Below, piece by piece: positions 8,642 through 60,203 of a stretch of DNA of 64,000 bases. This stretch comes from Clostridia bacterium (lineage in GTDB: Bacteria > Bacillota > Clostridia > Oscillospirales > CAG-272), in assembly GCA_024405755.1 (NCBI GenBank), contig JAKSOD010000001.1:85039-149038 (forward strand), in the 5' to 3' direction. The stretch's first letter is position 1. Every line of letters starts with the position of its first letter. A program made the translations under genes and the position numbers. Below the pieces are notes generated by a model. It did no database searches, had not been told where the DNA came from, and saw only the letters and a program-made list of their open reading frames with translations.

Positions 8642-10063
8642 ATGAAAAGAAATCACTATCTTCTCAGTATTGCAGCGTTTCTGATGGCAATGATCTGCAT
8701 AGCTCTGGCAGGATGCACCGGAAACGATACATACAACGTAGACAACGGTACATCGGACCTTTCATCTTCAGTCACGGAAACGGATACGTCCGCTTATGGA
8801 AAGATCGTTCTGATTGACAAAAATAAAAACGATTTTTCAATTATCAGGGGCATGTATGCAGAAATAGATGAAATCGAAGCGGCAAAACAACTCAATTCTG
8901 CATTCACATCAAAGTTTTCCTCAACTTGGGACTTTGTGATCAAGGATGATTTTGTTAAAGGTGCTTCAAAAGATGATGTCATTTCCGACAATGCACGGGA
9001 AATCCTTGTGGGTTATACTAACAGAAAGGAAAGCCGTGAAACTTTTGTTGGACTTAAAAAGGATCAGTATGTTATTAAGTTCGTCGGCAGTAAACTCGTA
9101 ATAATCGGATCAGATCAGTATTCCACACTTGCTGCAGTTGAGGAGTTTGTGAAGAATGTTGTTGAAAAGAACGAGACTTCGGAGCTTTTTGCCCTTTCAC
9201 CTGATTTTGTGCTGACCGGCACGGCAAAATTACGCCAGGTTTCGATTAATCCCGAAGCGTCATACAGACTCTTTAGTTGGAATCTCGGTTGTTACGTAGG
9301 AGGAAGTACCGGTTCATCTGAAGCAGTCAAAATTATTCTGAGGTATCTTCCCGACATACTTGCCTGTCAGGAAAGTGACAAAAAAGTTCATTCCAATATC
9401 CTTCAAAAAGTGCTTGATTCGAATTCCGATTATGCTTATGCCATGAAAATGCATCCCGGAACTTCAACATATAATTATACTCCAATAATCTACAAAAAAA
9501 CCTTGTTTGATCTTGTCGATTCGGGAGTTGAATGGCTCGACGGAAGATATACCGGGACAAATACAAAATCCCTGTCATGGGCGGTCTTTAAAGATAAAAA
9601 CGATATTCAGTTTGCAATGGTAAACTTCCACGGTGCTGTGTGTTCCGCAACTTATAAAGGATATGAGGATATGACTTCCGAAGAGCGTACCGCTCAGGCA
9701 CTTGCTTGGAAGATCGATAACGTCAGACAAGTTCTTGGAGTAAGAGACAGAATATACGCTGAATACGGAGAGATACCGTTTACTGTAAACGGAGACTGCA
9801 ACTTCAATTCAGACAGCGTACCATACGCCAATATGATCAAAGGTGGAATGTATGATGCAGAGAAAACAGCAAAGATCAAAACGACGGGATACACCACTTC
9901 ATTCACATATGGAAATTTTTATAAGTCCGGTAAGAGTATAGACCATATATTCGGTATCAACGGCATAGATTTTGTGGTATTTGAAATTGTAAGGGATGCG
10001 GAAGTCAAGACTGCGAGCGATCATTGCCCGGTCTACGTTGATTACAATATCGGAATTAAATAA
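8642..10063 (+). CDS. Endonuclease/exonuclease/phosphatase (EEP) family lipoprotein
   Basis: Signal peptide with lipobox LAGC. The C-terminal SDHCPVYVDY is the typical EEP catalytic His motif. Confidence 0.75.
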   Translation: MKRNHYLLSIAAFLMAMICIALAGCTGNDTYNVDNGTSDLSSSVTETDTSAYGKIVLIDKNKNDFSIIRGMYAEIDEIEAAKQLNSAFTSKFSSTWDFVIKDDFVKGASKDDVISDNAREILVGYTNRKESRETFVGLKKDQYVIKFVGSKLVIIGSDQYSTLAAVEEFVKNVVEKNETSELFALSPDFVLTGTAKLRQVSINPEASYRLFSWNLGCYVGGSTGSSEAVKIILRYLPDILACQESDKKVHSNILQKVLDSNSDYAYAMKMHPGTSTYNYTPIIYKKTLFDLVDSGVEWLDGRYTGTNTKSLSWAVFKDKNDIQFAMVNFHGAVCSATYKGYEDMTSEERTAQALAWKIDNVRQVLGVRDRIYAEYGEIPFTVNGDCNFNSDSVPYANMIKGGMYDAEKTAKIKTTGYTTSFTYGNFYKSGKSIDHIFGINGIDFVVFEIVRDAEVKTASDHCPVYVDYNIGIK

Positions 10064-30550: not shown

Positions 30551-30581
30551 CCATGTTGATTAAAATTGATTGGAAAATGAT

Positions 30582-32501
30582 ATGAATATAGAAAAATATC
30601 CGATACTGTCAACGGTCGACGATCCATCCGACCTGCGTCGGCTCAATGATAAGGATACAGATACACTTGCTGATGAAATCCGAAATTTCCTTGTGGATAA
30701 CGTAAGTCGGACAGGGGGACACCTTGCGTCAAATCTCGGGGTTGTGGAGTTGACACTTGCCCTTCATAGAGTATTAGAAACACCGAAAGATAAGATAATC
30801 TGGGATGTCGGTCACCAATGTTACGTACATAAACTGATTACCGGACGCCGTGATTGTTTTGATACTCTTCGAAAACCTGGAGGTCTTTCCGGATTTACAA
30901 AAAGAAGTGAAAGTGAATATGATCCTTTTGGTGCAGGACACAGTTCCACGTCAGTATCTGCGGCACTCGGAATTGCTGAAGCAGAACGCCTGCGCGGAGG
31001 GGATGCATATACGGTTGCCGTTGTCGGAGACGGAGCTTTTACGGGCGGCATGATACATGAAGCACTAAATAACTGCGACGAAAACAGAGGACTTCGGCTG
31101 ATAATCATTATTAATGAAAACGAAATGTCTATTTCAAAAAATACAGGACGTTTCGCTAACAGTATCTCGAAGATACGTACCCGTCCGAGTTATTTCAGAA
31201 CAAAAGCGGCAACAAGGGGATTTCTTTCAAAAATCCCCCTGTTCGGTAAACCGCTCGTTTCCGGCATTACAAAAACAAAAAAATCACTTAAAAACCTTCT
31301 TTACGGATCAAATTATTTTGAGGATCTCGGACTGTATTATATAGGACCAATAGACGGTAATGACCGTGTAATGGTCGAAAACATGCTTCGGGAAGCAAAA
31401 AAATGCAACGACAGCGTTGTACTTCACGTGAAAACCGTGAAGGGAAAAGGCTATGCTCCTGCGGAAAAGACTCCCGATGCATTTCATGCTGTACCGCCTG
31501 CCGGTTCAGTCGGGCGAAATGGATTTTCTTCTGAATTCGGTAAGTATCTCTGCAAGTCCGCAGTGGAAGATAAAAGGATTTGCGCGATAACCGCTGCAAT
31601 GGGGCGCGGGACCGGTCTTCTTGATTTTCAGAACAAGTTTCCCGAAAGATTCTTTGACGTAGGTATTGCCGAGGAACATGCAGTGACCTTTGCTGCTGGA
31701 CTCGCGTCAAATGGAATGCGACCGGTGTGTGCAATATATTCCACTTTTTTGCAGCGTTCTTACGACAGTCTGATTCATGACGTTTCACTTCAAAACCTTC
31801 CTGTATTGTTTGCCATAGACCGTGCAGGTCTGAATTCATCTGACGGTGCTACACATCACGGAATTTTCGACGTAGCGTTTTTATCGGAAATTCCCGATAT
31901 GGCAATTTATACTCCCGCAACATACGCGGCAATGACAAGTGCCTTTGACGAAGCAAGAAGACTTGAAGTTCCCGCAGCTGTGAGATATCCGAATGCTGCC
32001 GAGGATCCACGGGTCATAGACGCATTTTACGGGAACGTTCTTCCTCTGAAACCCGGTGTGCGTTTATTCGGCCTTGAAGATCCCGGACATACAGATGCCG
32101 TTATTTTCGTACATGGCCGGATGGCTGCAACTGCTCTTGATGTAAAGGATGAACTGAGAAAGCGCGGCATACGGTGCGGGATTGTACTCTGTGAATATAT
32201 TAAGCCGTACCGGAAACTTGCCGAAGAAGTCAAAGCACTGTTTGATAGTCTGAATGGGGATTCTTTGGTCGTTTTCCTTGAAGAAGAAATCCGTTCCGGC
32301 GGATTCGGTATGAATCTTTCGGACGTTCTCGTTCAGCGCGGCTTGCTTTCATCTGATCGTCTTGAAATAATTGCTACTGATGATGATTTTGTTATACCGA
32401 CGTACGGAAAAACTGTTTTTGAAGCCGCCGGTATCGATAAAGACTCGGTTGCCGCAAAAATCACCTCACGCGTAAGTATGTCTTCCGAAGTTAAATTGTA
32501 A
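30582..32501 (+). CDS. dxs: 1-deoxy-D-xylulose-5-phosphate synthase
   Basis: GGHLASNLGVVELTLALH, GDGAFTGGM (ThDP motif) and DRAGL..DGATHHG. An alternative TTG start lies at 30570. Confidence 0.9.
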   Translation: MNIEKYPILSTVDDPSDLRRLNDKDTDTLADEIRNFLVDNVSRTGGHLASNLGVVELTLALHRVLETPKDKIIWDVGHQCYVHKLITGRRDCFDTLRKPGGLSGFTKRSESEYDPFGAGHSSTSVSAALGIAEAERLRGGDAYTVAVVGDGAFTGGMIHEALNNCDENRGLRLIIIINENEMSISKNTGRFANSISKIRTRPSYFRTKAATRGFLSKIPLFGKPLVSGITKTKKSLKNLLYGSNYFEDLGLYYIGPIDGNDRVMVENMLREAKKCNDSVVLHVKTVKGKGYAPAEKTPDAFHAVPPAGSVGRNGFSSEFGKYLCKSAVEDKRICAITAAMGRGTGLLDFQNKFPERFFDVGIAEEHAVTFAAGLASNGMRPVCAIYSTFLQRSYDSLIHDVSLQNLPVLFAIDRAGLNSSDGATHHGIFDVAFLSEIPDMAIYTPATYAAMTSAFDEARRLEVPAAVRYPNAAEDPRVIDAFYGNVLPLKPGVRLFGLEDPGHTDAVIFVHGRMAATALDVKDELRKRGIRCGIVLCEYIKPYRKLAEEVKALFDSLNGDSLVVFLEEEIRSGGFGMNLSDVLVQRGLLSSDRLEIIATDDDFVIPTYGKTVFEAAGIDKDSVAAKITSRVSMSSEVKL

Positions 32502-32514
32502 AAAAACACTGCCG
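32501..32514. repeat. Left arm of a split inverted repeat flanking the accessory segment
   Basis: AAAAAACACTGCCG starts on the last base of the dxs stop codon. Its exact reverse complement is at 38939-38952. Confidence 0.7.
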
Positions 32515-32794
32515 AAATATGCCGCGTGGTGATTTGGATGTGGTTCCCAATAATCATTACCTTAGCATTGCAATGGGAAACGGATAACGCTTGGAAAGGC
32601 AGAAATGCTTTTCTGAGCGTTTTTTCTTATCTGATAATCGGCACATTATATTTGTCTGCTTGTTTCCCCGATAATTTATGGGGAATTATAAAGGATGTCG
32701 AAAGACTAGGAAACGAGGCAGAAATACTTATACTTGGATGACTTTGAAAACCGGGTATTTGTCTGGTGACTTATCATAACCGGTACTCAGCAGC

Positions 32795-32821
32795 CGGCAG
32801 AAAGCCATGCTGCCGTTTTTT
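32795..32821 (+). terminator. Intrinsic terminator candidate in the dxs-regulator spacer
   Basis: Stem CGGCAG / CTGCCG with a 9-nt loop, followed by T6. Confidence 0.5.
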
Positions 32822-32840
32822 CTAACTTTATCAAAACCTA

Positions 32841-32869
32841 TTGAAAATCCAGGTCTATTCGTATATAAT
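32841..32869 (+). promoter_or_regulatory. Sigma-A type promoter candidate for the membrane-tethered LuxR-type regulator
   Basis: TTGAAA, 17 nt, TATAAT. Confidence 0.55.
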
Positions 32870-32927
32870 ATAGTATGTTCTTATGTTCTTTTACGAAAAA
32901 GAAAAAGAGACATTCAGGAGTGATAAG

Positions 32928-34817
32928 ATGAAGCACAACTTATATAAAATGTTCACAAAAACGCTGATACTGCTTGGGGTTCTCAGCATACAGTTGATTG
33001 GTACGCCGACAGCTATAGCTGCAGAATCTTCATTGATTACATCTGTGGATGAACTTACGGATGCGCTGATGAACTCAAACGACGGCGACACGATTCTCGT
33101 AGGAGATATTACATTTAAGCCGATGCCTATGGGGATGATCGTTGTCCCGAAAAATGTAACCATAAAAAGCGGCAAGCAAACTAATGCAGTTTTTACAAAT
33201 GCCACGTTCGCTCTTAACGGTACCACAACGGATTCATCTCCCCTGACTGTAAGATTTGAAAATGTTGATTTCCGCGGAGATCAGTCAGGTATACCCATAG
33301 ACCTGAATGCGCCTCCCACAATAAGCTCGGAAATGCCCGGCATTTTGAAAACAATGTGTGCGGCGATCTTCAAAATGAATGTCAATGCCACATATATCGG
33401 CTGTTCATTTGAAGGTTATCATTACAGCTACGGCGGAGTTTTTAACGCCATTTATTCCTCTGATGACAACAAGAATGCGCTGAATCTTACCTTGATCGAT
33501 TGTTCTTTTCGTAATAACGCATCAAAATTCGGAGGCAGCATCTATTTATCCGGATACAACCACAATGTCAGTTTAGACGCCCGCCGCTGCTCTTTTGATG
33601 CTAACGCCGCCGCGACCGGCGGAGCCATTTGGGCACGGGAATCCAATATTCATCTGCTTGACTGCTCTTTGATCGGTAACGGGTATCTGAATGCCGAAGT
33701 AAATTCGCCCAACGGCGGTGCATTGGCGTTATATAACTGCGGTGTGGATCTTGACGGATGCCTGATTGCGGGTAACACTTCCGGTGGCGACGGAGCCGGC
33801 GTTTTCTGCGAAATCTCGCCCTTCAAGACTTTGATTATGGAAAATTGCACGGTGATCGGCAATACCGCCGCAGAGGATGAAGGCATTTCAGTTGCGCTTG
33901 CCAAAACAAATTTTGATACGGCAGCCGCGGCACACATTTATTTTTCATCGCTCTTCGGGAAACAGAATTTTGCCGGCAATGTGGAATTGTCCGGCTGCCT
34001 GCTTGTTGACAAGAATATCTCAGAAAGTGAACCGAACGAAGAGAATGGATATTGTTTGGAACTGATACCGGAAAGTGCGCAGGAGAAAGGACTGATCCCG
34101 GCAACACCGGAACACGTATCTCTCCCGAAAGATGAATACCCGATCCCGAAAGAAGTGACTGACAGAATTGCCGGCGGAAAATTCGCAGACAGTCTGGGAA
34201 AATTGCAAGTCGGTGATAATTACGAAAAAGAAGCCAACATTGAAATAGAAGATACCCCGGGACACACGGAAGCCGTAACTCTCCGATACGGGGATAGAAT
34301 TGTACTTGAGTCTCCAGAAAGAAAAGGTTATTCCTTTGAGGGATGGGAATATCCCAAAGGAACACCTATTGAAAGCGGGAAAGTTTTCATTGGCGGTGAA
34401 CTGCCCGAAGGGAAAGTAACGGCTCGATGGAACTTCGTTCTCTCGGAAAATCTTTATGTGATATGGGTGCCGATCCTTGTGATCGCCGCCGCAGGTCTGC
34501 TTGCTTTCGTCCTGATCCGGAGAAAAAAGAAAGCAGTCCCTGATGTCGTCCCAGCGGTGGAAAATGCGGCGGAGGAAGCCTTGACTCTGCCGGATGATTG
34601 GATAGACCGGGTGTGCGAAAAGCCGGAAATCACCGGGCTGATTTCCAAGCGTGAGATGGAAGTCCTGCAAAAACTGCTGGAAGGCAAAAGCAGAAAACAG
34701 ATCGCAGAGGAACTGTTTGTCACAGAATCAACGATAAAAAAGCACTCTGCAAGCATTTATTCCAAACTGGACGTACACAACAGGACGGAGTTGATTTACA
34801 AGCTGACCAAACAATAA
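32928..34817 (+). CDS. Single-pass membrane protein: extracellular beta-helix (Pmp-type repeats) plus Listeria-Bacteroides-type repeat, TM helix, cytoplasmic LuxR/GerE HTH
   Basis: ATG 32928 has AGGAG 8 nt upstream. Signal peptide ..LIGTPTAIAAES. FxxN..GGA[IL] units (FRNNASKFGGSIY, FDANAAATGGAIW, NGGALALYN). GYSFEGW repeat. TM helix LYVIWVPILVIAAAGLLAFVLI followed by RRKKK. C-terminal REMEVLQKLLEGKSRKQIAEELFVTESTIKKHSASIYSKLDV. Confidence 0.75.
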   Translation: MKHNLYKMFTKTLILLGVLSIQLIGTPTAIAAESSLITSVDELTDALMNSNDGDTILVGDITFKPMPMGMIVVPKNVTIKSGKQTNAVFTNATFALNGTTTDSSPLTVRFENVDFRGDQSGIPIDLNAPPTISSEMPGILKTMCAAIFKMNVNATYIGCSFEGYHYSYGGVFNAIYSSDDNKNALNLTLIDCSFRNNASKFGGSIYLSGYNHNVSLDARRCSFDANAAATGGAIWARESNIHLLDCSLIGNGYLNAEVNSPNGGALALYNCGVDLDGCLIAGNTSGGDGAGVFCEISPFKTLIMENCTVIGNTAAEDEGISVALAKTNFDTAAAAHIYFSSLFGKQNFAGNVELSGCLLVDKNISESEPNEENGYCLELIPESAQEKGLIPATPEHVSLPKDEYPIPKEVTDRIAGGKFADSLGKLQVGDNYEKEANIEIEDTPGHTEAVTLRYGDRIVLESPERKGYSFEGWEYPKGTPIESGKVFIGGELPEGKVTARWNFVLSENLYVIWVPILVIAAAGLLAFVLIRRKKKAVPDVVPAVENAAEEALTLPDDWIDRVCEKPEITGLISKREMEVLQKLLEGKSRKQIAEELFVTESTIKKHSASIYSKLDVHNRTELIYKLTKQ

Positions 34818-34843
34818 TATACGACGATTGACCTTTTCTTGCA

Positions 34844-34870
34844 CAAAACAGAAAAAGTAGACCTGTTTTG
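34844..34870 (+). terminator. Terminator after the LuxR-type gene
   Basis: 8-bp stem CAAAACAG / CTGTTTTG with an 11-nt loop. The T-rich 3' arm runs into TTC. Confidence 0.5.
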
Positions 34871-34876
34871 TTCAAA

Positions 34877-34921
34877 GGTAGCCTTTTTTCCACTACCATT
34901 TTTACAAAAGATCTGTATAAT
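34877..34921 (+). promoter_or_regulatory. Inverted repeat overlapping a weak -35, plus TATAAT: candidate activator-dependent promoter of the six-gene operon
   Basis: GGTAG-N11-CTACC at 34877-34897. TATAAT at 34916-34921. The hexamer at the -35 position is CTACCA, a poor match. Confidence 0.35.
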
Positions 34922-34970
34922 ATTAATTGTAATCACCAAGGAACAGTGCGTTCGGAAAGGAGGTACAACG

Positions 34971-35393
34971 GTGCTGGATGCAGTAACGAAGAAATACATC
35001 GATGCTTCCACGGAAGAACAGTATAACTTCTCTTTTTTCTGTGACTGCTGCGGCAAGGTCGTCAGCACCACGAAACTCGCATTTCGTCCGGGATTTGAGA
35101 AAAAGCTGTTTCTGTCCCGGGCAGAGCAAAGAGCACGGGAGCTCGTTTGGCGGCAGGATCACGATTCCGCTTATGAACGGGCAAATGTCGAAGCTCTGAA
35201 GAAGCTGAACCGCTGCGTGATATGCGGTGCGGCGATCTGCAATGATTGTACGGTTGAATGTGAAGAAACGGACGGAAAAACCGTATGTGTCAAATGCGCA
35301 AAGGAACATCACTACAAGGGTATCATCTGGAACGACAATGACGAAACCGTACGGGTCGATTTCAGTTCAGAACAGGAAAAGAACGGTGCATAA
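34971..35393 (+). CDS. Cys-rich (probable double zinc-ribbon) cytoplasmic protein, uncharacterised
   Basis: GTG 34971 follows GGAAAGGAGG (34954-34963). Four Cys pairs: CDCC, CVIC, CNDC and CVKC. 140 aa. No family recognised. Confidence 0.6.
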   Translation: MLDAVTKKYIDASTEEQYNFSFFCDCCGKVVSTTKLAFRPGFEKKLFLSRAEQRARELVWRQDHDSAYERANVEALKKLNRCVICGAAICNDCTVECEETDGKTVCVKCAKEHHYKGIIWNDNDETVRVDFSSEQEKNGA

Positions 35394-35417
35394 TTGCACC
35401 TGATCGGAGGTAAACAA

Positions 35418-36041
35418 ATGAGTTTTTTGAAAAACATTATTCGCAACGCCATCGGAGACGGCGTCAGCAAAGGTATTCGTGACGCGGTAAGTTCCGCAGC
35501 GGAAAAGATCGTTGCTCCGAAAGCTGAAGAGTATGCAAACAAAGTGGCAGATTCTCTTGATAACGCTGCCGGAGAAGTGAACGCAGCGACTGCTGCAAGT
35601 GCAGACGAAAAGAAAAGCGGCTTTTCCTCTTTGGAGGAATCTCTGAACAGACTGTCCCGGTCCGCGGAAAAGTATGCCGCAACGCTGGAAAAGGCGGCCG
35701 CTACGCAGGAGGACCTGAACAAGATGTGGAACGAGAAAATTCCCGACTTCCCCGTGTGGTGCTTCGGCGGTACGGATTTTTGGTTTGATGATAACAGTAA
35801 TGACAGCGGCACCTACTATGTATTCAATGCGGATAATGCCCCGCAGGAGGGTTTGGAACTGTATATTGCTCTGCTTAAGCAGAACGGCTTTGTGCGAAAA
35901 TATGCCTCTGCCGATGAAGTTCTTTATAAAGATCTGGGCGGCGAATATCTGCTGTTCGGCTGTACCGATGCTTTCGGCACTGCTCCCGTGATGTCTGTCT
36001 ATATGGGCCGCACGAAAGACAGAAGCGAAATTGAATGTTAA
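35418..36041 (+). CDS. Hypothetical protein (helical Ala/Lys/Glu-rich N-terminal part, globular C-terminal part)
   Basis: ATG 35418 follows GGAGG. 207 aa. No family recognised. Confidence 0.6.
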   Translation: MSFLKNIIRNAIGDGVSKGIRDAVSSAAEKIVAPKAEEYANKVADSLDNAAGEVNAATAASADEKKSGFSSLEESLNRLSRSAEKYAATLEKAAATQEDLNKMWNEKIPDFPVWCFGGTDFWFDDNSNDSGTYYVFNADNAPQEGLELYIALLKQNGFVRKYASADEVLYKDLGGEYLLFGCTDAFGTAPVMSVYMGRTKDRSEIEC

Positions 36042-36057
36042 GAGGACATAATCATCT

Positions 36058-37020
36058 ATGAAAAAGTTTTTTGCAATTATGTTGGCTTTGACTATGCTGC
36101 TTGCTTTTGCGGCTTGCGAAAAAAAGCCGGCTGATACTCCCGAAAGTTCTTCGGAGTCCGGTAATAATCAGAGTCAGTCAACGCCCGGCGACAGTACTGC
36201 TCCCGAGGGCGCGATGTCCGATAAAACCGAGCTGGGCAAAGCCATCGCTTACAGAGTCGACAGCGAAGGACACGTTGTTATCTCCGTCAAGACGTCTGCT
36301 TATATCAAGAACGGCTCCGGCTGGCTCGGCATCTGCCCCATGGGCGTTTACCTGACGGAAGAAGCCGCCGACGCTGCCGATGTTTACTATGAGCATTTTG
36401 ATCCGAATTACGATAAGGAATGGTTTGACGGCATCTACACTTTCGTACTGAAAAACGATAGTATCGATCCGGCAACCTATACGATGGTTCTGTGCGATGA
36501 CGACGATTCCGGCAGCGTGATCGGCGAATGGATCTTTAACAAGACTAAGAGCGGAAGCATCGAGATCGGCTTTGACAACTCGTGGCTGAAGGGTGCAGGC
36601 GAAGGCAGACCCGTGAAGAAGTTTGACAGCTTGAAAGACGAGGTCGCATCCTGGTTCACGTTCAACGAGCTCGATGACGAATGGTCCGAATTCTTCTTTG
36701 ACGGGTACTATCTTGAAGAGGTTGACCCGTATGGATATGACAAATATCATCTGTTTGTCTGCCCTGAAGGCGACTATTCAACGTTTGACGAGGCAATGGA
36801 AGCGCACGTCGGCGATTATTCAGGCTTCGTGGAAAAATGTCCTTATAAGTTCTCAATCGATCACAGCAATATCGGGAAGGGCAAATACACGATGGTGCTT
36901 GCGAGAATGGGCGGCAATGTCGAAGTGCAGTTTACTGCCGAAAAGAAGAGTCCTACCGATTGGAAAATGGACTTCTCAAATGCCAAGTGCCCCAAGCTTG
37001 AAAGCAAATATGTAAAATAA
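36058..37020 (+). CDS. Hypothetical lipoprotein with two internally similar halves
   Basis: MKKFFAIMLALTMLLAFAAC lipobox and a Ser-rich linker. The two halves end in ..ATYTMVLCDDD.. and ..GKYTMVLARMG.. Confidence 0.65.
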   Translation: MKKFFAIMLALTMLLAFAACEKKPADTPESSSESGNNQSQSTPGDSTAPEGAMSDKTELGKAIAYRVDSEGHVVISVKTSAYIKNGSGWLGICPMGVYLTEEAADAADVYYEHFDPNYDKEWFDGIYTFVLKNDSIDPATYTMVLCDDDDSGSVIGEWIFNKTKSGSIEIGFDNSWLKGAGEGRPVKKFDSLKDEVASWFTFNELDDEWSEFFFDGYYLEEVDPYGYDKYHLFVCPEGDYSTFDEAMEAHVGDYSGFVEKCPYKFSIDHSNIGKGKYTMVLARMGGNVEVQFTAEKKSPTDWKMDFSNAKCPKLESKYVK

Positions 37021-37055
37021 TCTCGTCACAAAATTTTGATAAGGAGACAGAAAAA

Positions 37056-37781
37056 ATGAAAAAGTTTATTGCACTTGCACTTGCCGCTTTGATAGTATTC
37101 GCGCTTGCCGCCTGCGGCGGTAAAACCGATCCCAATACGTCGGACAGCACAGTATCTTCCGCGGATACCGAAGACACGTCGTTTCCGGAGGGAGACCCTG
37201 CGGAATATGGCCGTGAGTATTGGGAAGCAAAATATCCGGGTGAGAATATCTGTCCGTTCTATATCGAGGAAAACGGTGTGGAACGCAGTTATTACTGGAT
37301 TTCCGGCCTTGACGGTTGGAACGGCACGATGGCAAGTTGGATCAATCAACCCTTTAACTGGAACGGCTGGCACAAGACAGCGGACGGCTGTATCGTGAAC
37401 AAGGACGAGACCTTGAAGATCACCGACAACTGGGCAAACGGTGACGAATCCATGTCCAGCTACTGCACGGTAACGACCGAAAAGTATGATAAAGACAGCA
37501 CCGGTAATCAGAATACGGAAGTGAGTGAAGACTGGACGTTTACAGATTATGCCAAGCCCGAAAACTGCGAGATCGGCGAGATTGAAGACTGGGGATCCTT
37601 TGCAAAGGTCTATGTTACGTGGGATAGCAAGGATGCCGCAAAGGCATATAAAGAAGCACTTGCGCTTAGCGGCGGAACCACAGCCGACATAGACGGTGCT
37701 TTTGAGTATAATAGCAGTAAAGTGATGATTTCATATTCCGAAACAAACTCTCTCGCAAACTTTGTTATCATTTATAAATAA
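37056..37781 (+). CDS. Hypothetical lipoprotein
   Basis: MKKFIALALAALIVFALAAC lipobox and a Ser/Thr/Asp linker. GGAGA lies upstream. Confidence 0.65.
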   Translation: MKKFIALALAALIVFALAACGGKTDPNTSDSTVSSADTEDTSFPEGDPAEYGREYWEAKYPGENICPFYIEENGVERSYYWISGLDGWNGTMASWINQPFNWNGWHKTADGCIVNKDETLKITDNWANGDESMSSYCTVTTEKYDKDSTGNQNTEVSEDWTFTDYAKPENCEIGEIEDWGSFAKVYVTWDSKDAAKAYKEALALSGGTTADIDGAFEYNSSKVMISYSETNSLANFVIIYK

Positions 37782-37795
37782 TAGGAGGCACAGTT

Positions 37796-38185
37796 ATGGC
37801 TGATTTTAACGAAAAGTTCAACGAATTCAACAACACTCCCGACACGACTGCAGAATACGATCAAAACGACATTCAGCAAAACAAAGTAATGGCGATTTTG
37901 GCGTATTTGTCGTGGCTTGTTCTCGTTCCGATCTTTGCGGCAAAGGAATCAAAATTTGCACGGTTTCACGCAAATCAGGGAATCGTTCTTGCCATTGCGG
38001 AAATCATCTGCTGGGTCGCGCTCGGTATTCTCGGCAATCTGCCGTTCATCGGTTGGATTTTCAGTATTATGGATGGCATGTTCAGCCTCGTGTGTCTGAT
38101 ATTTGCCGTAATAGGTATTATGAACGCCGCAAACGGCAAAGCCAAAGAACTTCCGCTGCTCGGACACTTCAAGATCTTGAAATAA
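37796..38185 (+). CDS. DUF4870-like small membrane protein
   Basis: NKVMAILAYLSWLVLVPIFAAKESKFARFHANQGIVLAI matches the DUF4870 signature (..F.rFHAnQ..). Confidence 0.65.
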   Translation: MADFNEKFNEFNNTPDTTAEYDQNDIQQNKVMAILAYLSWLVLVPIFAAKESKFARFHANQGIVLAIAEIICWVALGILGNLPFIGWIFSIMDGMFSLVCLIFAVIGIMNAANGKAKELPLLGHFKILK

Positions 38186-38210
38186 TCATTTCGGCAACAG
38201 GAGAATTTCT

Positions 38211-38642
38211 ATGAGAAGAAACCTTCTGCTTGCGGGGATTGTCGTTCTGCTTGCTGTTGCCGTATCGGTCCTCGTCCGGTCTGTGCTTGACTCAAAATCA
38301 AACGATATTTCTTCTGTGATTTATGAATCTTCATACGGGTACCGTATCGAGATGACACGGCAGCAGGACGAGTTTTTCTTCTCCTATATTCCGTCGTCGG
38401 AACATGATCCCGTCGAACAGTTGAGAGGCGTGGAAAGCTATGAGACTGTGTCGGAACTGCTGCGGGAATTTGATCTGGACTCTGCGGCGGCTGTATCGGA
38501 CAACACATCCGGAGATGACGACGACCGTCTGACCGTCGTTTTCAAAACCGGCATAAAACATGTGCTGATTCGTCCGGAATCGGACGATGCGTTCCGGAGC
38601 ATCCGCAGCTGTCTGATGGAATTTGCGGGATTATGCCGGTAA
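38211..38642 (+). CDS. Hypothetical membrane-anchored protein
   Basis: N-terminal anchor MRRNLLLAGIVVLLAVAVSVLV. GGAGAA lies upstream. No family recognised. Confidence 0.55.
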   Translation: MRRNLLLAGIVVLLAVAVSVLVRSVLDSKSNDISSVIYESSYGYRIEMTRQQDEFFFSYIPSSEHDPVEQLRGVESYETVSELLREFDLDSAAAVSDNTSGDDDDRLTVVFKTGIKHVLIRPESDDAFRSIRSCLMEFAGLCR

Positions 38643-38690
38643 AGCAGATAATCTTTTGTTTGAAGATACAACATAGTATCAAAAAAGGAA

Positions 38691-38727
38691 AATGTGGCTG
38701 TTAAAAAGTCAATACTTTTTTACAGCC
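38691..38727 (+). repeat. Block X plus A/T-cored hairpin H1
   Basis: AATGTGGCTGTTAAAAAGTCAAT recurs, reverse-complemented and with one extra A, at 60180-60203. The hairpin GGCTGTTAAAAAGT / ACTTTTTTACAGCC has 14 bp with one mismatch. Confidence 0.65.
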
Positions 38728-38764
38728 CGTCAAAAGCAGTGGTCAGGATCCACTGCTTTTGACG
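38728..38764. other. 15-bp perfect hairpin H2
   Basis: CGTCAAAAGCAGTGG / CCACTGCTTTTGACG with a 7-nt loop. No U-tract on either strand. Confidence 0.6.
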
Positions 38765-38814
38765 CGAAATTGGCGTTTTTCCGTGAAACAAGGATGAATA
38801 TTACTCAATTTTCA

Positions 38815-38843
38815 GGGCAACACGGCGGTGTGCAGCCGCTGAG
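38815..38843 (+). repeat. Block Y
   Basis: GGGCAACACGGCGGTGTGCAGCCGCTGAG matches the reverse complement of 60120-60173, apart from 2 substitutions and a 24-nt insertion in the latter. Confidence 0.6.
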
Positions 38844-38855
38844 CCAAATGTCGGC

Positions 38856-38903
38856 GGGGTGTTAAAAAACTCGATAATGAGTTTTTTAACACCCCCGTTT
38901 TTT
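38856..38903 (+). terminator. Strong plus-strand intrinsic terminator H3 with no gene directly upstream
   Basis: 17-bp perfect stem GGGGTGTTAAAAAACTC / GAGTTTTTTAACACCCC with a 6-nt loop, then CG plus T6. Confidence 0.7.
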
Positions 38904-38910
38904 CACAAGT

Positions 38911-38952
38911 TACTGTCTTATCCACCCGTGGGATAAGGCGGCAGTGTTTTTT
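38911..38952 (+). terminator. Second plus-strand terminator-like hairpin; its 3' arm is the right arm of the split inverted repeat
   Basis: TACTGTC pairs with GGCAGTG (two G.U pairs) around an inner TTATCC/GGATAA stem, followed by T6. CGGCAGTGTTTTTT (38939-38952) is the reverse complement of 32501-32514. Confidence 0.55.
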
Positions 38953-38964
38953 ATTTGACTGTTC

Positions 38965-39921
38965 TTATACATTCACAGATAGTCCGAGTGAGTCGATAAC
39001 TTCATGCAGGGAACGGGCAGATTCACGCAGAAGAGTTTCTTCTTTTTCGTTAAGTGGAATCTCAAGTACTTTTTCAATTCCGTTTCTTCCGACAATACAG
39101 GGAATACCCATACATACTCCGTCAATACCGTAATGTCCGCCTACAAGAGTGGATACGGGAAGAATAGTCTGTTCGTCTTTTACGATAGCTGTTACGATTC
39201 TTCGTACGCTTTCTGCAATGGCGTAAAATGTTGCTCCTTTGGCGTCAATGATTCTGTACGCTGCGTCACGAACGTCCTCAAACAACGGATTGAACGACGT
39301 TGGATCACATTCCGAACAGCAATCACGACAGAATGATGAAAGGTCAATGCCGGAAATATTTGCACTGCTCCATACGGGAACCTCGCTGTCTCCATGCTCA
39401 CCGATGATGAATGTGTGAACATTTCTGCTGTCAACGCCGAGTCTGTTGCCGACAAGTTGTTTGAGACGGGCGGTATCGAGTACGGTGCCGGATCCGATAA
39501 CACGGTTGGCGGGAAAGTGTGACATTGAAAGCGTAACGTAGGTCAGAATATCAACGGGATTTGTAACAACAAGCAGGATCCCTTCGCATTTTGCCTCACA
39601 TATACTCCCGACTATTGAAGAGAATACCTTGACATTTTTGTGAACTAGATCAAGACGTGTTTCTCCGGGTCGCTGATTTGCACCTGCGGTGATGATGATA
39701 ATTGCAGCGTCGGAGATATCAGAATAGTCTCCCGCGTAAATGTCAACAGGGAAATTGAAAGGAATACCGTGTACCATATCTTCCGCTTCACCGGCCGCTT
39801 TTTTACGGTCGATATCTACGAGAACTATTTCGGTGAAAAGTCCGGAAAGCATTAAAGTATAGGCGGTTGTTGCACCGACATTTCCACATCCGATAACTGC
39901 ACATTTTCTGTTATTTACCAT
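38965..39921 (-). CDS. ldh: L-lactate dehydrogenase
   Basis: KCAVIGCGNVGATTAYTL (Rossmann motif), VLVDIDRKKAAGEAEDM, and GEHGDSEVPVWS containing the catalytic His. Confidence 0.9.
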   Translation of the reverse strand: MVNNRKCAVIGCGNVGATTAYTLMLSGLFTEIVLVDIDRKKAAGEAEDMVHGIPFNFPVDIYAGDYSDISDAAIIIITAGANQRPGETRLDLVHKNVKVFSSIVGSICEAKCEGILLVVTNPVDILTYVTLSMSHFPANRVIGSGTVLDTARLKQLVGNRLGVDSRNVHTFIIGEHGDSEVPVWSSANISGIDLSSFCRDCCSECDPTSFNPLFEDVRDAAYRIIDAKGATFYAIAESVRRIVTAIVKDEQTILPVSTLVGGHYGIDGVCMGIPCIVGRNGIEKVLEIPLNEKEETLLRESARSLHEVIDSLGLSVNV

Positions 39922-55535: not shown

Positions 55536-55603
55536 AATAATACTAATATGATCAGACTTGGAAATATACATGACCTTATAGTTTACGAAAACTAAAAAAT
55601 TGG

Positions 55604-55633
55604 GGCTGTTAAAAAACTTGTTTTTTAACAGCC
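55604..55633. terminator. Bidirectional terminator H4 of the GGCTGTTAAAAAA / TTTTTTAACAGCC hairpin family
   Basis: 13-bp perfect stem with a 4-nt loop, flanked by A-rich and T-rich runs. It lies between convergent genes. Confidence 0.7.
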
Positions 55634-58733: not shown

Positions 58734-60080
58734 ATGAAAAAAATCAGTTTTTTTCTTGCTGTTCTCATGGTTATATCATGTTTTATGATATCCTGCGGAG
58801 TAGCAGGCGTAGGATCTGATTCGAGTATTTCCGAAAATTCTCAGGATCAGCCTGAAGATTCTGTTGATTCTTCTGCGGCTTCCGATAGTATTGACATAAC
58901 TGCAGATTCTTCTGTTCCGGATTCTGAGTCAGAGAGTGATACTTCGAATGATGAGACATCCGCCGACGAACCGGATGAACCCGACGTTCCCGACGTGCCG
59001 GACGAACCCGACGACCCCGATGAACCCGAAGTTCCGGAAGAGCCGGAGCCGTCCTGCGTGCGCGATCCTCTTACCGAAGAAGACGTGATACTCGATATCG
59101 GTCTCGGAGAGTCGATACGCTTATACTGCGAGCTTCCCGACGACTTCGTTCTCACGAAAAGCTACCTTGCGTCCGTGACCTCGCTCGGAATTTCCGACGT
59201 CCGCCCCGAAACACTCGTCGGGCTTGAATATCTGACCTCCCTGCAGGATTTCGGATGCTTCGGCACGCATATTTCGGACATCAGCGTCATCAGCGGCATG
59301 ACCGAGCTAAAGTATTTTTATCTTGCCACGAGTCTCGTAAAGGAGATACCCGATCTTTCGCGTCTGACGCAGCTCGAAAGTCTGGATCTCAGCGGAAATC
59401 TGATCGAAGACCTCTCGCCGCTTCTGACCGCTCCCCATATCAGCTACGTCAGCATGAACGACAACCGCATATCGACCGTCCGCCCGATCGCCGACGCGCA
59501 GAACATAGATCATATCTGTCTTTCCGGCAATCCGATACTCGACATTTCCTGCCTTTCCGACAACGACAAGCTGGTCGAAGGAATGAAGGAATACTCTTAC
59601 GATTTCAAAAAAGCGGTCGAGACCGAGAAAAAAGCGCAAAAAATCGTTTCCGAGATCATCACGGAAGATATGACCGATCTCGAAAAGGAGTACGCGGTTT
59701 ACCGCTATATCATCGACAACATGGAATACGGCGTGATGAAGGGACTCGAGAAGCCGTTCGGATACGACGGACTCATCAAGGGAAAGGGAGTCTGTCTCGA
59801 ATACGCGAACTCGTTCTGTTTGCTTGCAAAAACGGCAGGTCTTGACGTCATCGTCGTTCTCAGCGATACGCACGCGTGGGATATGATAAAGCTCGACGGA
59901 AAATATTATCACGTTGACACGACGTGGGACGACGGGAACGAGATACCGTTCTTCTTCAACGTCGGCACGGACTATATCATGATACAGTCGGATCACGAAC
60001 ACGATCTTGCCCGTTATCCTGTGGCGGAGACCATGCCTCCGGAGGTCTACGAGTATCTTTTCGGGATCGATCTGTCGTGA
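58734..60080 (+). CDS. Lipoprotein with acidic Pro-rich linker, leucine-rich repeats and a C-terminal transglutaminase-like Cys-protease core
   Basis: Lipobox FMISC. Linker PDEPDVPDVPDEPDDPDEPEVPEEPEP. LRR units (LESLDLSGNLIEDLSPL, ISYVSMNDNRISTVRPI). KGKGVCLEYANSFCLLAKTAGL..HAWDMIKLDGKYYHVDTTWD supplies the Cys-His-Asp core. Confidence 0.75.
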   Translation: MKKISFFLAVLMVISCFMISCGVAGVGSDSSISENSQDQPEDSVDSSAASDSIDITADSSVPDSESESDTSNDETSADEPDEPDVPDVPDEPDDPDEPEVPEEPEPSCVRDPLTEEDVILDIGLGESIRLYCELPDDFVLTKSYLASVTSLGISDVRPETLVGLEYLTSLQDFGCFGTHISDISVISGMTELKYFYLATSLVKEIPDLSRLTQLESLDLSGNLIEDLSPLLTAPHISYVSMNDNRISTVRPIADAQNIDHICLSGNPILDISCLSDNDKLVEGMKEYSYDFKKAVETEKKAQKIVSEIITEDMTDLEKEYAVYRYIIDNMEYGVMKGLEKPFGYDGLIKGKGVCLEYANSFCLLAKTAGLDVIVVLSDTHAWDMIKLDGKYYHVDTTWDDGNEIPFFFNVGTDYIMIQSDHEHDLARYPVAETMPPEVYEYLFGIDLS

Positions 60081-60119
60081 TCCCGAAGCTCGTAAATTCC
60101 GATCCTTCAATTATAATAT

Positions 60120-60173
60120 CTCAGCCGCCGGAAGCAAACGTGCCTCCGGCGGCTGAACACCGCCGTTTTGCCC
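60120..60173 (-). repeat. Block Y second copy (minus-strand orientation), carrying a 24-nt insertion that creates an 11-bp hairpin
   Basis: The reverse complement reads GGGCAAAACGGCGGTGTTCAGCCGC[CGGAGGCACGTTTGCTTCCGGCGG]CTGAG, versus 38815-38843. Hairpin CAGCCGCCGGA / TCCGGCGGCTG at 60122-60155. Confidence 0.6.
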
Positions 60174-60179
60174 TAACAC

Positions 60180-60203
60180 ATTGACTTTTTTAACAGCCAC
60201 ATT
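60180..60203 (-). repeat. Block X second copy (minus-strand orientation); one arm only of an H1/H4-type hairpin
   Basis: ATTGACTTTTTTAACAGCCACATT is the reverse complement of AATGTGGCTGTTAAAAAAGTCAAT. The complementary arm is absent locally. Confidence 0.65.

What the first reader, a model, noticed from the sequence alone, without database searches (positions are those of the whole stretch)
32501..38952. 6.4-kb accessory segment sits between the two exactly complementary arms of what reads as one dxs/ldh bidirectional terminator
AAAAAACACTGCCG (32501-32514) begins on the last base of the dxs stop codon. Its exact reverse complement, CGGCAGTGTTTTTT (38939-38952), ends 12 nt from the stop codon of the convergent ldh. 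Joined by a short loop, the two arms would form an A6-stem-T6 hairpin. That is the canonical bidirectional intrinsic terminator for a convergent gene pair.

Everything between the arms is non-housekeeping: a 0.4-kb non-coding stretch, a membrane-tethered LuxR-type regulator, six uncharacterised envelope or Cys-rich genes, and a stack of hairpins.

Hand counts of single 60-nt lines inside the operon give 52-58% G+C (lines 36301 and 37321). Lines in neighbouring core genes give 38-50% (lines 47041 and 19261).

No integrase or transposase is present. The segment may be an old insertion into a terminator loop. Alternatively, the 14-bp repeats may be the terminal inverted repeats of a decayed element.
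Basis: partly seen in the sequence, partly recalled or inferred. Interest (0 to 1): 0.7.

Follow-up and report, generated by a model that had tools for sequence, protein, structure and literature searches.

The report
Foreign operon splitting the dxs/ldh terminator
A 6.4-kb horizontally acquired regulator-plus-envelope-protein operon sits where related bacteria have only a short two-way transcription terminator between dxs and ldh, and the two 14-base flanks look like the separated halves of that terminator; this is a tidy insertion scar, not a new kind of element.

Summary
AAAAAACACTGCCG (32501-32514) and its exact reverse complement (38939-38952) lie at the dxs stop codon and 12 nt from the ldh stop, and the pair is unique in the window.

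The insertion reading is supported. In the closest relative found (ldh 87%, dxs 74% aa) and in two more distant syntenic genomes, dxs and ldh are 55-80 bp apart. An A5-stem-loop-stem-T5/6 hairpin separates them at the same position, though with other stem sequences.

The seven segment genes have GC3 of 0.54, against 0.405 ± 0.044 for the other 46 window genes. Their LuxR-headed module recurs at 63-82% aa identity in seven other chromosomal contexts. None of those copies has these flanks, so the arms belong to the target, not to the module.

There is no transposase, integrase or target-site duplication. No empty site with the same stem was found, so "inserted at the hairpin apex" stays an inference (about 0.6).

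A second case of the same architecture exists in locus L023. Several relatives carry insertions beside an intact hairpin, so no hairpin-targeting mechanism is needed.

The right-end "hairpin stack" is a separate, conserved four-hairpin repeat element.

Verdict: an ordinary, well-documented insertion. Interest is low to moderate.

The parts
30570..32501 (+). dxs (1-deoxy-D-xylulose-5-phosphate synthase), the core gene on the left flank
   Evidence: Pfam DXP_synthase_N E = 1e-107. It is syntenic in L002, L006 and L082.
32501..32514 (+). Left arm AAAAAACACTGCCG. Inferred to be the ascending half (A-tract plus stem) of the ancestral dxs/ldh bidirectional terminator.
   Evidence: In L002 and L006 the A-tract starts at the same distance from the dxs stop.
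32586..32627 (+). Hairpin 'a' plus T6, carried by the module. It is now the first terminator-like site downstream of dxs.
   Evidence: 16-bp stem, fold z = -4.2. A 94% identical copy lies upstream of the LuxR gene in L089 at 9722-9754.
32795..32820 (+). Hairpin 'c' (CGGCAG-aaagccatg-CTGCCG-T6), the conserved left boundary of the module
   Evidence: Homology with L087 starts exactly here. The hairpin is conserved in L087, L089 and L090.
32841..32869 (+). Promoter-like site TTGAAA-17-TATAAT of the module
   Evidence: 11 of 12 consensus matches. It is conserved upstream of LuxR homologues in other genomes.
32928..34817 (+). Membrane-tethered LuxR/GerE-type one-component regulator: signal peptide, beta-helix ectodomain, transmembrane helix and C-terminal HTH
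   Evidence: There are 48 homologues, and the 100% match is annotated as a LuxR C-terminal-related regulator of a Clostridia MAG.
34839..35393 (+). Cys-rich small protein. Homologues are about 143 aa, so the true start is probably internal.
   Evidence: No family hit. It lies downstream of the LuxR gene in L087 (there after inserted MerR and YhfC genes), L088, L122 and L123.
35394..36041 (+). 215-aa protein of unknown function
   Evidence: 81% identical copy in L087 and a 45% identical C-terminal copy in L088. No family hit.
36058..37020 (+). 320-aa predicted lipoprotein
   Evidence: Lipobox signal peptide. It is homologous to the 519-aa gene of L088.
37056..37781 (+). 241-aa predicted lipoprotein
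   Evidence: 80% identical copy in L087.
37796..38185 (+). 129-aa membrane protein with a weak DUF4870/MamF_MmsF-like match
   Evidence: 87% identical copy in L087.
38211..38642 (+). 143-aa protein with an N-terminal membrane anchor
   Evidence: 26% identical to the 146-aa gene of L087.
38686..38905 (+). Structured repeat element of about 210 nt with four hairpins (A 38696-38727, B 38728-38764, C about 38822-38840, D 38856-38895 plus T6). D is the strong terminator of the operon.
   Evidence: A homologous copy lies directly downstream of dxs in L005 (nhmmer E = 5e-71). A partial copy is at window 60110-60203 on the minus strand. The consensus fold has 56 pairs, 6 of them compensatory. No Rfam match.
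38913..38941 (+). Hairpin H3 (CTGTCTTATCC-ACCCGTG-GGATAAGGCGG), which overlaps the first 3 nt of the right arm
38939..38952 (+). Right arm CGGCAGTGTTTTTT. Inferred to be the descending half (stem plus T-tract) of the ancestral terminator.
   Evidence: Its T-tract plus ATT aligns with the T-tract of the L082 terminator. The conspecific contigs L081 and L086 carry the same filled junction.
38965..39921 (-). ldh (L-lactate dehydrogenase), the core gene on the right flank. It now has no canonical U-tract terminator.
   Evidence: Pfam Ldh_1_N/Ldh_1_C. The scan found no minus-strand terminator-like site between 35400 and 39200.

Best explanation
The ancestor of this organism had dxs and ldh tail to tail, separated by one A-tract/stem/loop/stem/T-tract hairpin that terminated both genes.

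A compositionally foreign DNA segment of about 6.4 kb was integrated at or near the apex of that hairpin. The segment is a self-contained module:
- two upstream terminator hairpins;
- its own sigma-70-type promoter;
- a membrane-tethered LuxR/GerE regulator;
- six small envelope or Cys-rich proteins;
- terminator hairpins at the end.

The two 14-nt arms are the orphaned halves of the old terminator and no longer act together.

After the insertion, dxs transcription most likely stops at the module's first hairpin (32586-32621 plus T6). The operon stops at hairpin D (38856-38895 plus T6). ldh is left without a canonical terminator.

What is shown and what is inferred
- Shown: the segment is an insertion relative to all relatives sampled. 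It is horizontally mobile and not native in composition. The arms are not part of the module.
- Inferred: the breakpoint lay in the hairpin apex. Integration was by illegitimate (recombinase-independent) joining rather than by a dedicated element, because the segment has no recombinase, target duplication or att-type direct repeats. The event is recent, because the arms are perfect and GC3 is not ameliorated.
For: Ancestral adjacency
- dxs and ldh are adjacent, with an A5-stem-T5/6 hairpin between them, in L082-L085 (80-bp spacer), L002 and L006 (about 55 bp).
- In L002 and L006 the A-tract begins 1-2 nt after the dxs stop, as in the window.
- The T-tract plus ATT next to ldh aligns with that of L082.
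- None of the seven segment proteins is found within 10 kb of dxs in 80 related genomes.

Foreign origin of the segment
- GC3 is 0.541 against 0.405 ± 0.044, p = 6e-7.
- The module is 82-85% identical in nucleotides to the copy in L087, whose host genes have GC3 of about 0.67. The window's core genes are only 69-73% identical to its closest known relative.
- The module lies in seven other contexts.

The arms belong to the target
- No flanking inverted or direct repeats comparable to the arms occur around the other copies.
- The arms are unique in the window.
- Their position is significant against controls.

Consequences and a parallel case
- The scan found no minus-strand terminator-like site in the ~3.5 kb beyond the ldh stop. 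The first plus-strand site after dxs is the module's hairpin a.
- L023 shows the same architecture. An HTH_3 regulator gene (GC3 0.418, against 0.58-0.68 in its flanking genes) lies between AAAAAAGAGCTCCGC and GCGGAGCTCTTTTTT, at the stops of the convergent SdpI-family and phosphoglycerate-mutase-like genes.
Against: - No genome was found with an intact AAAAAACACTGCCG-loop-CGGCAGTGTTTTTT between dxs and ldh. The 30 metagenome hits with that stem are unrelated terminators.
- The closest relative, L082, has a different stem. Orthology of the arms with an ancestral stem is therefore not shown.
- The resemblance to the stem bases of L002 and L006 (CA..GCCG) is weak evidence only.
- The right arm overlaps a local hairpin (38913-38941) that the scan flags as terminator-like. 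It could be the tail of the operon's own terminator.
- All three conspecific sequences (the window, L081 and L086) are filled, so no presence/absence polymorphism is documented.
Confidence: 0.6

Rival explanations
1. The 14-nt repeats are the terminal inverted repeats of a non-autonomous or decayed transposable element that carried the operon and displaced the ancestral terminator.
For: The inverted repeat can be extended to 33 nt at 76% complementarity. In the analogous L023 case the repeat does extend, imperfectly, to about 38 nt (P = 0.013). In L023 the homology with relatives starts at the T-tract and excludes the stem. A transposase fragment (L088) and a Y1 transposase (L090) lie near other copies of the module.
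Against: No transposase or integrase domain is in the segment. There is no target-site duplication: the flanks are ...TTGTA and ATTTG.... The extension beyond 14 nt is not significant in the window. The other module copies have no such repeats. The arms occur nowhere else in the window. The A6-stem/stem-T6 form is exactly that of the terminators found at this site in relatives, which a terminal inverted repeat would have to mimic by coincidence.
Confidence: 0.13
2. The segment is a real insertion, but the complementarity of the two 14-mers is coincidental. The left one is just an A-rich sequence after the dxs stop. The right one is the tail of the operon's last terminator (H3).
For: 13-mer pairs of this type occur at background rates of about 10 per 1.5 Mb in any orientation. 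The right arm is partly paired within hairpin 38913-38941. The left arm has a weak local partner. L082's stem differs from the arms. The same stem arose independently in about a dozen unrelated metagenomic terminators.
Against: Once both arms are required to lie at convergent ORF stops, controls give 0 of 32 and 1 match of 14 nt or more in 23,438 comparisons. The register is exact: A6 and T6 are outermost and the 8-nt stems are in phase. A left-hand A6+GC-rich 8-mer without a partner has no other explanation at a gene end.
Confidence: 0.15
3. A hairpin-targeting mechanism acting in trans placed the cassette specifically into the terminator loop. Candidates are an HUH/Y1 enzyme, an IS that targets palindromes, or nuclease cleavage of extruded hairpins followed by end joining.
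For: There are two independent split-terminator cases in about 1.6 Mb of related sequence. IS elements that insert into REP palindromes are documented, and strain-specific segments are associated with BIMEs in E. coli (PMC1525189). Group IIC introns sit downstream of terminator stem-loops (PMC1702495).
Against: At the same dxs-downstream site other relatives carry insertions beside an intact hairpin: L003, L038, L031, L047 and L056. Split cases are therefore a minority, compatible with untargeted breakpoints in a 55-80-nt spacer. The insert ends of the two cases share no motif. No candidate enzyme is in the window.
Confidence: 0.08
4. The segment is ancestral at this site and was lost independently in the relatives.
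For: Only the fact that no empty conspecific site is known.
Against: This would need at least three independent precise deletions, each creating a perfect bidirectional hairpin. The segment's GC3 is foreign to the host. The module sits elsewhere in other genomes.
Confidence: 0.03

Closest known systems
Horizontally acquired genomic islets in spacers between convergent core genes (integration hotspots)
   Same: The gene block is compositionally atypical and absent from relatives. It sits between two conserved convergent genes, carries its own promoter and terminators, and varies in cargo between genomes.
   Different: There is no integrase, tRNA target or att-type direct repeats. The breakpoints appear to fall inside a single terminator hairpin and leave its two halves as a 14-nt inverted scar.
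IS elements that insert into REP/PU palindromes (IS1397, ISKpn1, IS621, ISPpu9; PMC1525189)
   Same: Foreign DNA lies within an extragenic palindrome between genes.
   Different: Those are autonomous IS elements with a transposase and a defined target palindrome family. Here there is no transposase, the cargo is an operon, and the palindrome is a unique intrinsic terminator.
Group IIC introns located after intrinsic-terminator stem-loops (PMC1702495)
   Same: The insertion site is associated with a terminator hairpin.
   Different: IIC introns insert downstream of the stem-loop, not within it. They are ribozymes with a reverse transcriptase. No intron RNA was found by Rfam and no reverse-transcriptase domain is present.
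Membrane-bound one-component transcription regulators such as ToxR and CadC (comparison from general knowledge)
   Same: A single polypeptide links an extracytoplasmic domain through one transmembrane helix to a cytoplasmic DNA-binding domain.
   Different: The topology is reversed: the ectodomain is N-terminal and the HTH C-terminal. The HTH is of the LuxR/GerE type, and the ectodomain is a beta-helix (PF13229/PF02415 hits in this protein and its homologues).
REP/BIME-like repeated extragenic palindromes (for the element at 38686-38905)
   Same: The palindromic units are conserved and lie just after stop codons. They recur in several genomes and at several places in the window, and compensatory changes keep the stems.
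   Different: Only a few copies were seen. The element is a composite of four hairpins over about 210 nt. No RAYT/Y1 gene is in the window, and the genome-wide copy number is unknown.

Membership tests
Bidirectional intrinsic (Rho-independent) terminator | GC-rich stem flanked by a 5' A-tract and a 3' T-tract, located between convergent genes | tested here: met
   A6-CACTGCCG and CGGCAGTG-T6 lie at the dxs and ldh stops. Relatives have hairpins of the same form at the same site.
Bidirectional intrinsic (Rho-independent) terminator | Short loop (3-10 nt), so that the stem forms in the nascent RNA | tested here: not met
   The arms are 6,424 nt apart. Only a hypothetical joined version folds, at -19.7 kcal/mol. 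In its present state it is a relic, not a working terminator.
TIR-bounded transposable element (IS, MITE or composite) | Terminal inverted repeats | tested here: met
   14 nt are exact. The extension to 33 nt is not significant.
TIR-bounded transposable element (IS, MITE or composite) | Target-site duplication flanking the repeats | tested here: not met
   The flanks are TTGTA|...|ATTTG, with no direct repeat.
TIR-bounded transposable element (IS, MITE or composite) | Transposase gene, or further copies with the same ends | tested here: not met
   No transposase domain is present. The 14-mer is unique in the window. Five other module copies checked lack such ends. The genome-wide copy number cannot be tested.
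Integrase-mediated genomic island or integrative element | Tyrosine or serine recombinase gene and att-type direct repeats, often at a tRNA or the 3' end of a gene | tested here: not met
   No recombinase is present. The longest direct repeat between the flank zones is 10 nt. The window has no tRNA gene.
Integrase-mediated genomic island or integrative element | Atypical composition and patchy distribution | tested here: met
   GC3 is 0.541 against 0.405. The segment is absent next to dxs in 80 relatives. The module lies in seven other contexts.
LuxR/GerE-family transcription regulator (protein 32928-34817) | C-terminal GerE-type helix-turn-helix | tested here: met
   PF00196 at E = 5e-18, score 64.8 bits against a cut-off of 23.5.
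LuxR/GerE-family transcription regulator (protein 32928-34817) | N-terminal receiver or autoinducer-binding domain, as in classical LuxR, NarL or FixJ | tested here: not met
   NCBIfam hits cover only residues about 530-628 and all fall far below their cut-offs. The N-terminal 540 residues give only beta-helix, PMP and Flg_new hints.
REP/BIME-type repeated extragenic palindromes (element 38686-38905) | Many copies per genome and an associated RAYT | not testable with these tools
   Only the 64-kb window is available. It holds three to four related hairpins and no Y1 transposase.

The most novel reading that the evidence does not exclude
In this group of gut Clostridia (Oscillospiraceae-like), recombinase-less gene cassettes headed by a regulator may be captured repeatedly at the apex of bidirectional terminator hairpins. 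The process would be specific to hairpins, for example cleavage of the extruded hairpin or its use as a recombination site by an enzyme encoded elsewhere. Split terminators would then be a general, searchable footprint of this kind of gene acquisition. The window and L023 would be two instances.
Probability: 0.1. Interest if true: 0.6.

Novelty: new member of a known kind. Interest (0 to 1): 0.3.

Why it matters
This is a clean, datable example of how a foreign operon enters a bacterial chromosome without any visible mobility gene, and of what that costs. Two housekeeping genes lose their shared terminator. dxs borrows one from the insert, and ldh is left without one.

The split-terminator signature is an A-tract plus stem at one convergent gene end, with the complementary stem plus T-tract at the other. 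It is easy to search for and could be used to catalogue recent integrase-independent insertions.

The finding does not change what is known about gene transfer or termination.

Tried and rejected
Empty-site searches
- An exact search of metagenome contigs for the dxs-side junction found nothing.
- A search for the rejoined hairpin found 30 stretches, none near dxs or ldh.
- An exact look-up of the dxs ORF product found no record. The ORF start is probably not the called start.
- Conspecific contigs L081 and L086 only reach the right junction.

Searches for a carrier of the segment
- DNA searches of the whole segment against plasmids and phages found nothing useful.
- A protein scan of viral contigs with LuxR found nothing. 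The plasmid hits match only the HTH domain.

Annotation attempts
- Rfam gave no match with E below 1 in 32000-39500.
- PADLOC, PHROGs and NCBIfam gave no function for the six cargo genes.

Ideas tested and dropped
- The extension of the inverted repeat beyond 14 nt is not significant.
- The 280 nt between the left arm and the module's conserved start show no homology with L087's upstream region.
- I looked for the missing right arm of the truncated hairpin copy at 60185-60198 on the far side of the second foreign gene (58734-60080). None was found.
- P0003, which looked like an intermediate ldh relative, is a 56% identical protein with an internal duplication.
- I considered an integron attC site, site-specific integration with a palindromic core, an inversion with a breakpoint in the loop, and ancestral presence followed by loss. 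All were rejected on the orientation or parsimony arguments given in the report.
Full report
**1. The observation**

The window reads ...GTTAAATTGTAAAAAAACACTGCCGaaatatg... at 32490-32521 and ...ataaggCGGCAGTGTTTTTTatttgactgttcTTA... at 38933-38967.

- The dxs ORF (30570-32501; Pfam DXP_synthase_N, 1e-107) ends in TAA, and the last A of that codon is the first base of the left arm.
- The ldh ORF (38965-39921, minus strand; Ldh_1_N/Ldh_1_C) has its stop 12 nt beyond the right arm.
- The 14-mer and its reverse complement are the only matches in the window, even with one mismatch allowed. Shuffles give 0.04 expected.

**2. Is it more than chance?**

A 14-nt inverted repeat somewhere within a few kilobases is not remarkable. 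I counted A5+8-mer ... reverse-complement-8-mer+T5 pairs lying 0.2-12 kb apart in 1.5 Mb of sequence (the window plus fetched related loci). There were 12 in the hairpin-like arrangement, 11 in the opposite (divergent) arrangement, and 13 and 7 as direct repeats.

The position is what is unusual.

- Only two of the twelve hairpin-like pairs have the A-tract arm within 25 nt after the stop of a plus-strand ORF and the T-tract arm within 25 nt of the stop of a minus-strand ORF. None of the 32 control pairs does.
- Across 11,719 pairs of convergent ORF-end zones, exact reverse-complement matches of 14 nt or more occurred four times: the window, L023, a 16-nt match in L056 that I did not examine, and one repeated complete hairpin.
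- Control matches of that length occurred once in 23,438 comparisons.

The extension of the repeat to 33 nt at 76% reported by the repeat finder adds nothing significant.

**3. Relatives**

The source genome itself is not in the genome collection. The best dxs matches are 64-65% identical and come from Oscillospiraceae/Anaerotruncus-like gut MAGs.

- Two of them, L002 and L006, keep the order ATPase-dxs-ldh-FGGY kinase. Their dxs and ldh are about 55 nt apart.
  - L002's spacer is AAAAATCAGCCGAAGC-TTTT-GCTTCGGCTGATTTTT.
  - L006's spacer is AAAAACAGCCGAGAC-AATT-GTCTCGGCTGTTTTTT.
  - The A-tract starts 1-2 nt after the dxs stop, as in the window.
- The closest relative I could find is L082-L085, reached through the ldh protein.
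  - It is 87% identical in ldh and 74% in dxs (amino acids), and 69-73% identical in core-gene nucleotides.
  - It is syntenic over at least 15 kb and has dxs and ldh 80 nt apart.
  - Its hairpin is AAAAAGGACGTTCTC-ACTCAAAAAA-GAGAGAACGTCGTTTTTT.
  - Its GTTTTTTATT next to ldh aligns with the right arm's T-tract in the window.
- In L003 another gene, 416 aa and HtrA-like by my reading of its sequence, lies between dxs and an intact hairpin that abuts ldh.
- None of the seven proteins of the segment is encoded within 10 kb of dxs in any of the 80 loci.
- The conspecific contigs L081 (ldh 100%) and L086 (98%) end inside the hairpin stack and carry the same filled right junction.

The stems of the relatives differ from the window's arms. 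Two metagenome scans found no empty site with the window's stem. The 30 stretches with A5-CACTGCCG...CGGCAGTG-T5 are ordinary terminators at about a dozen unrelated loci.

**4. What the segment is**

It is a self-contained transcription unit with these parts:

- hairpin a (32586-32621 plus T6; fold z = -4.2);
- a degenerate partial repeat at 32716;
- hairpin c (32795-32820 plus T6);
- a near-consensus promoter, TTGAAA-17-TATAAT, at 32841-32869;
- seven co-directional genes;
- hairpins at 38696-38941.

The first gene encodes a 629-aa protein. It has a signal peptide, an ectodomain of about 500 residues with beta-helix, PMP and Flg_new hints, one transmembrane helix, and a C-terminal GerE HTH.

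The six other proteins have no family assignment in Pfam, NCBIfam, PHROGs or PADLOC beyond two lipoprotein signal peptides and a weak DUF4870 match. No recombinase, transposase or phage gene is present.

I infer that the regulator controls the downstream envelope genes in response to an extracellular cue. That is inference from architecture only.

**5. The segment is foreign and mobile as a module**

- Composition. GC3 of the seven genes is 0.49-0.60 (mean 0.541), against 0.405 ± 0.044 for the other 46 ORFs of the window (p = 6e-7). Bulk GC differs only slightly.
- Other copies. The LuxR protein has 48 relatives. Seven were located on contigs, and each lies in a different chromosomal neighbourhood:
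  - L087, next to tRNA-Arg and rpmH;
  - L088, near rho and rpmE;
  - L089, near gap;
  - L090, between a Na/Pi cotransporter gene and a Y1 transposase;
  - L091, after an FtsK/SpoIIIE-type ATPase;
  - L123, near infC-rpmI-rplT;
  - L122, on a short contig.
- Conserved and variable parts. The leader (hairpins a and c plus the promoter), the LuxR gene and the Cys-rich gene are conserved. The remaining cargo varies.
- Evidence for transfer. The L087 copy is 82-85% identical in nucleotides to the window's, although L087's own genes have GC3 of about 0.67. The window's core genes are only 69-73% identical to its nearest known relative. That pattern indicates horizontal transfer.
- Carriers. No copy is on a known plasmid or phage.
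- Flanks of the other copies. The five copies I checked (L087, L088, L090, L091, L123) have no inverted or direct repeats flanking them that resemble the window's arms. Homology between the window and L087 begins exactly at hairpin c, and hairpin a is shared with L089. The module therefore reaches to within about 70 nt of the left arm, and the arms themselves are not part of it.

**6. Best explanation**

The arms are the two halves of the ancestral dxs/ldh bidirectional terminator, separated by an insertion at or near its apex.

- This explains the A6 and T6 on the outside, the exact phase, the position at both stop codons, and the T-tract homology with L082.
- It also explains why the scan finds no minus-strand terminator-like site in the ~3.5 kb beyond the ldh stop, and why the first plus-strand site after dxs belongs to the module.
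- The perfect arms and the unameliorated GC3 suggest a recent event.
- With no recombinase, target duplication or att repeats, integration was most likely illegitimate joining. The mechanism is inferred, not shown.
- Confidence is about 0.6, because the decisive empty site is missing.

**7. A second case, and whether hairpins are targeted**

L023 shows the same architecture.

- AAAAAAGAGCTCCGC begins 6 nt after the stop of an SdpI-family gene.
- GCGGAGCTCTTTTTT ends a few nt from the stop of the convergent 557-aa gene. I read that gene as phosphoglycerate mutase from its sequence and did not test it.
- The 1.67 kb between them holds an HTH_3 regulator gene with GC3 of 0.418, against 0.58-0.68 in the flanking genes.
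- In L023 the inverted repeat does extend imperfectly to about 38 nt (P = 0.013).

In close relatives of L023 (95% identity in that gene), the dxs-downstream spacer ranges from 55 nt to 2.2 kb. Different hairpins abut the conserved gene in different relatives, and several of these relatives carry extra genes beside an intact hairpin.

Insertions that leave the hairpin intact (L003, L038, L031, L047, L056) outnumber those that split it. The data therefore do not call for a hairpin-targeting mechanism. I give that idea about 0.1.

**8. Rivals**

- Terminal inverted repeats of a decayed element (0.13). There is no target duplication, no transposase and no other copy, and the module elsewhere lacks these ends.
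- Coincidence, with the right arm being the tail of the operon's last hairpin (0.15). This is possible because the right arm overlaps hairpin 38913-38941, but the positional controls speak against it.
- Ancestral presence with repeated loss (0.03). This is unparsimonious and contradicted by composition.

**9. The hairpin stack**

The stretch 38686-38905 is not a random pile of terminators.

- It is a four-hairpin element of about 210 nt. A homologous copy lies immediately after the dxs stop in L005 (nhmmer E = 5e-71), whereas the closely related L007 has a single hairpin there.
- A truncated copy lies at window 60110-60203 on the minus strand, just after the stop of a 2-keto-3-deoxy-galactonokinase-family (DGOK) gene.
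- The consensus fold has 56 pairs, six of them maintained by double changes.
- Rfam has no match.
- Its terminal hairpins belong to a GGGGnTGTTAAAAAAC...GTTTTTTAACAnCCCC family, also seen at window 55602-55633 and in L004, L007 and L061.
- I cannot tell whether it arrived with the module or was already between dxs and ldh. It is absent from the L087 copy.

**10. Comparison with known systems, and verdict**

The finding works like a small integrase-less genomic islet in a convergent-gene spacer.

- It resembles, but is not a member of, the IS elements that insert into REP palindromes (PMC1525189).
- It also resembles, but is not, a group IIC intron. Those sit after terminator stem-loops (PMC1702495).

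The TIR alternative is disfavoured. This is a neat but ordinary case: a new member of a known kind, interest about 0.3.

Noticed in passing
window 38686-38905; L005 11925-12149; window 60110-60203 (minus strand): A four-hairpin structured element of about 210 nt is conserved at about 75% between genomes whose dxs proteins are only 63% identical. It has 6 compensatory pairs and no Rfam match. It sits right after stop codons. L007 has a single hairpin where L005 has the full element.
   Followed up: partly
window 55602-55633, 38696-38727, 38856-38895; L004 11917-11958; L007 3139-3185; L061 7734-7783: A family of terminator-like palindromes, GGGGnTGTTAAAAAAC...GTTTTTTAACAnCCCC, is shared by several distantly related genomes. 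It is REP-like, and the copy number per genome is unknown.
   Followed up: partly
window 58734-60080 (+): This is the only other compositional outlier in the window (GC3 0.604). It encodes an LRR plus transglutaminase-core protein with a lipoprotein-like N-terminus, and it lies next to the truncated copy of the hairpin element. It is probably a second foreign insertion. No split hairpin was found around it.
   Followed up: partly
L023 12327-14021: A second split bidirectional terminator. AAAAAAGAGCTCCGC and GCGGAGCTCTTTTTT lie at the stops of convergent SdpI-family and phosphoglycerate-mutase-like genes. They enclose 1.67 kb with an HTH_3 regulator gene of foreign GC3 (0.418 against 0.58-0.68). 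The inverted repeat extends imperfectly to about 38 nt.
   Followed up: partly
L023 12429-12567; also L035 5194-5332, L001 9072-9210, L056 568-749, L016 5654-5797: A GC-rich repeat of about 140 nt, 77-96% identical between genomes, lies inside the L023 insert near its left junction. In L016 it forms a long palindrome at the contig end. It may be a MITE-like element.
   Followed up: no
L028, L046, L038, L031, L047, L056, L035, L034, L023 (interval downstream of dxs): In one clade (95% identity in the gene convergent to dxs), the spacer after dxs varies from 55 nt to 2.2 kb. Its gene content differs and so does the terminator hairpin abutting the conserved gene. This is a local hotspot of replacement.
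   Followed up: partly
L087 655-1024 and 1128-1319: tRNA-Arg(CCG) is followed by a direct repeat of about 105 nt covering its 3' end plus terminator (709-813 and 920-1024), which looks like an att-type scar. A 63-aa ORF between the promoter and the LuxR gene looks like an excisionase-type (Xis-like) HTH by my reading of the sequence, which I did not test. In this copy the module abuts the repeat.
   Followed up: no
L065 5378-12327; L059 16012-19920: Long inverted repeats (over 100 nt in L065, over 35 nt in L059) flank segments of 6.8 kb and 3.7 kb. They may be IS-bounded or invertible segments.
   Followed up: no
window 32597-32823: The leader region of the module is partly duplicated. GGCAGAAA occurs at 32598, 32717 and 32796. 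TATTTGTCTG occurs at 32649 and 32756. CGTTTTTTCT occurs at 32618 and 32814. Hairpins a and c are therefore related copies.
   Followed up: partly
L095 12848-12877; L112; L117: Unrelated metagenomic terminators read AAAAACACTGCCG-AAAT-CGGCAGTGTTTTT. The stem is the same as the window's arms, and the loop equals the 4 nt that follow the left arm in the window. This is probably convergence. The flanking genes are neither dxs nor ldh.
   Followed up: partly
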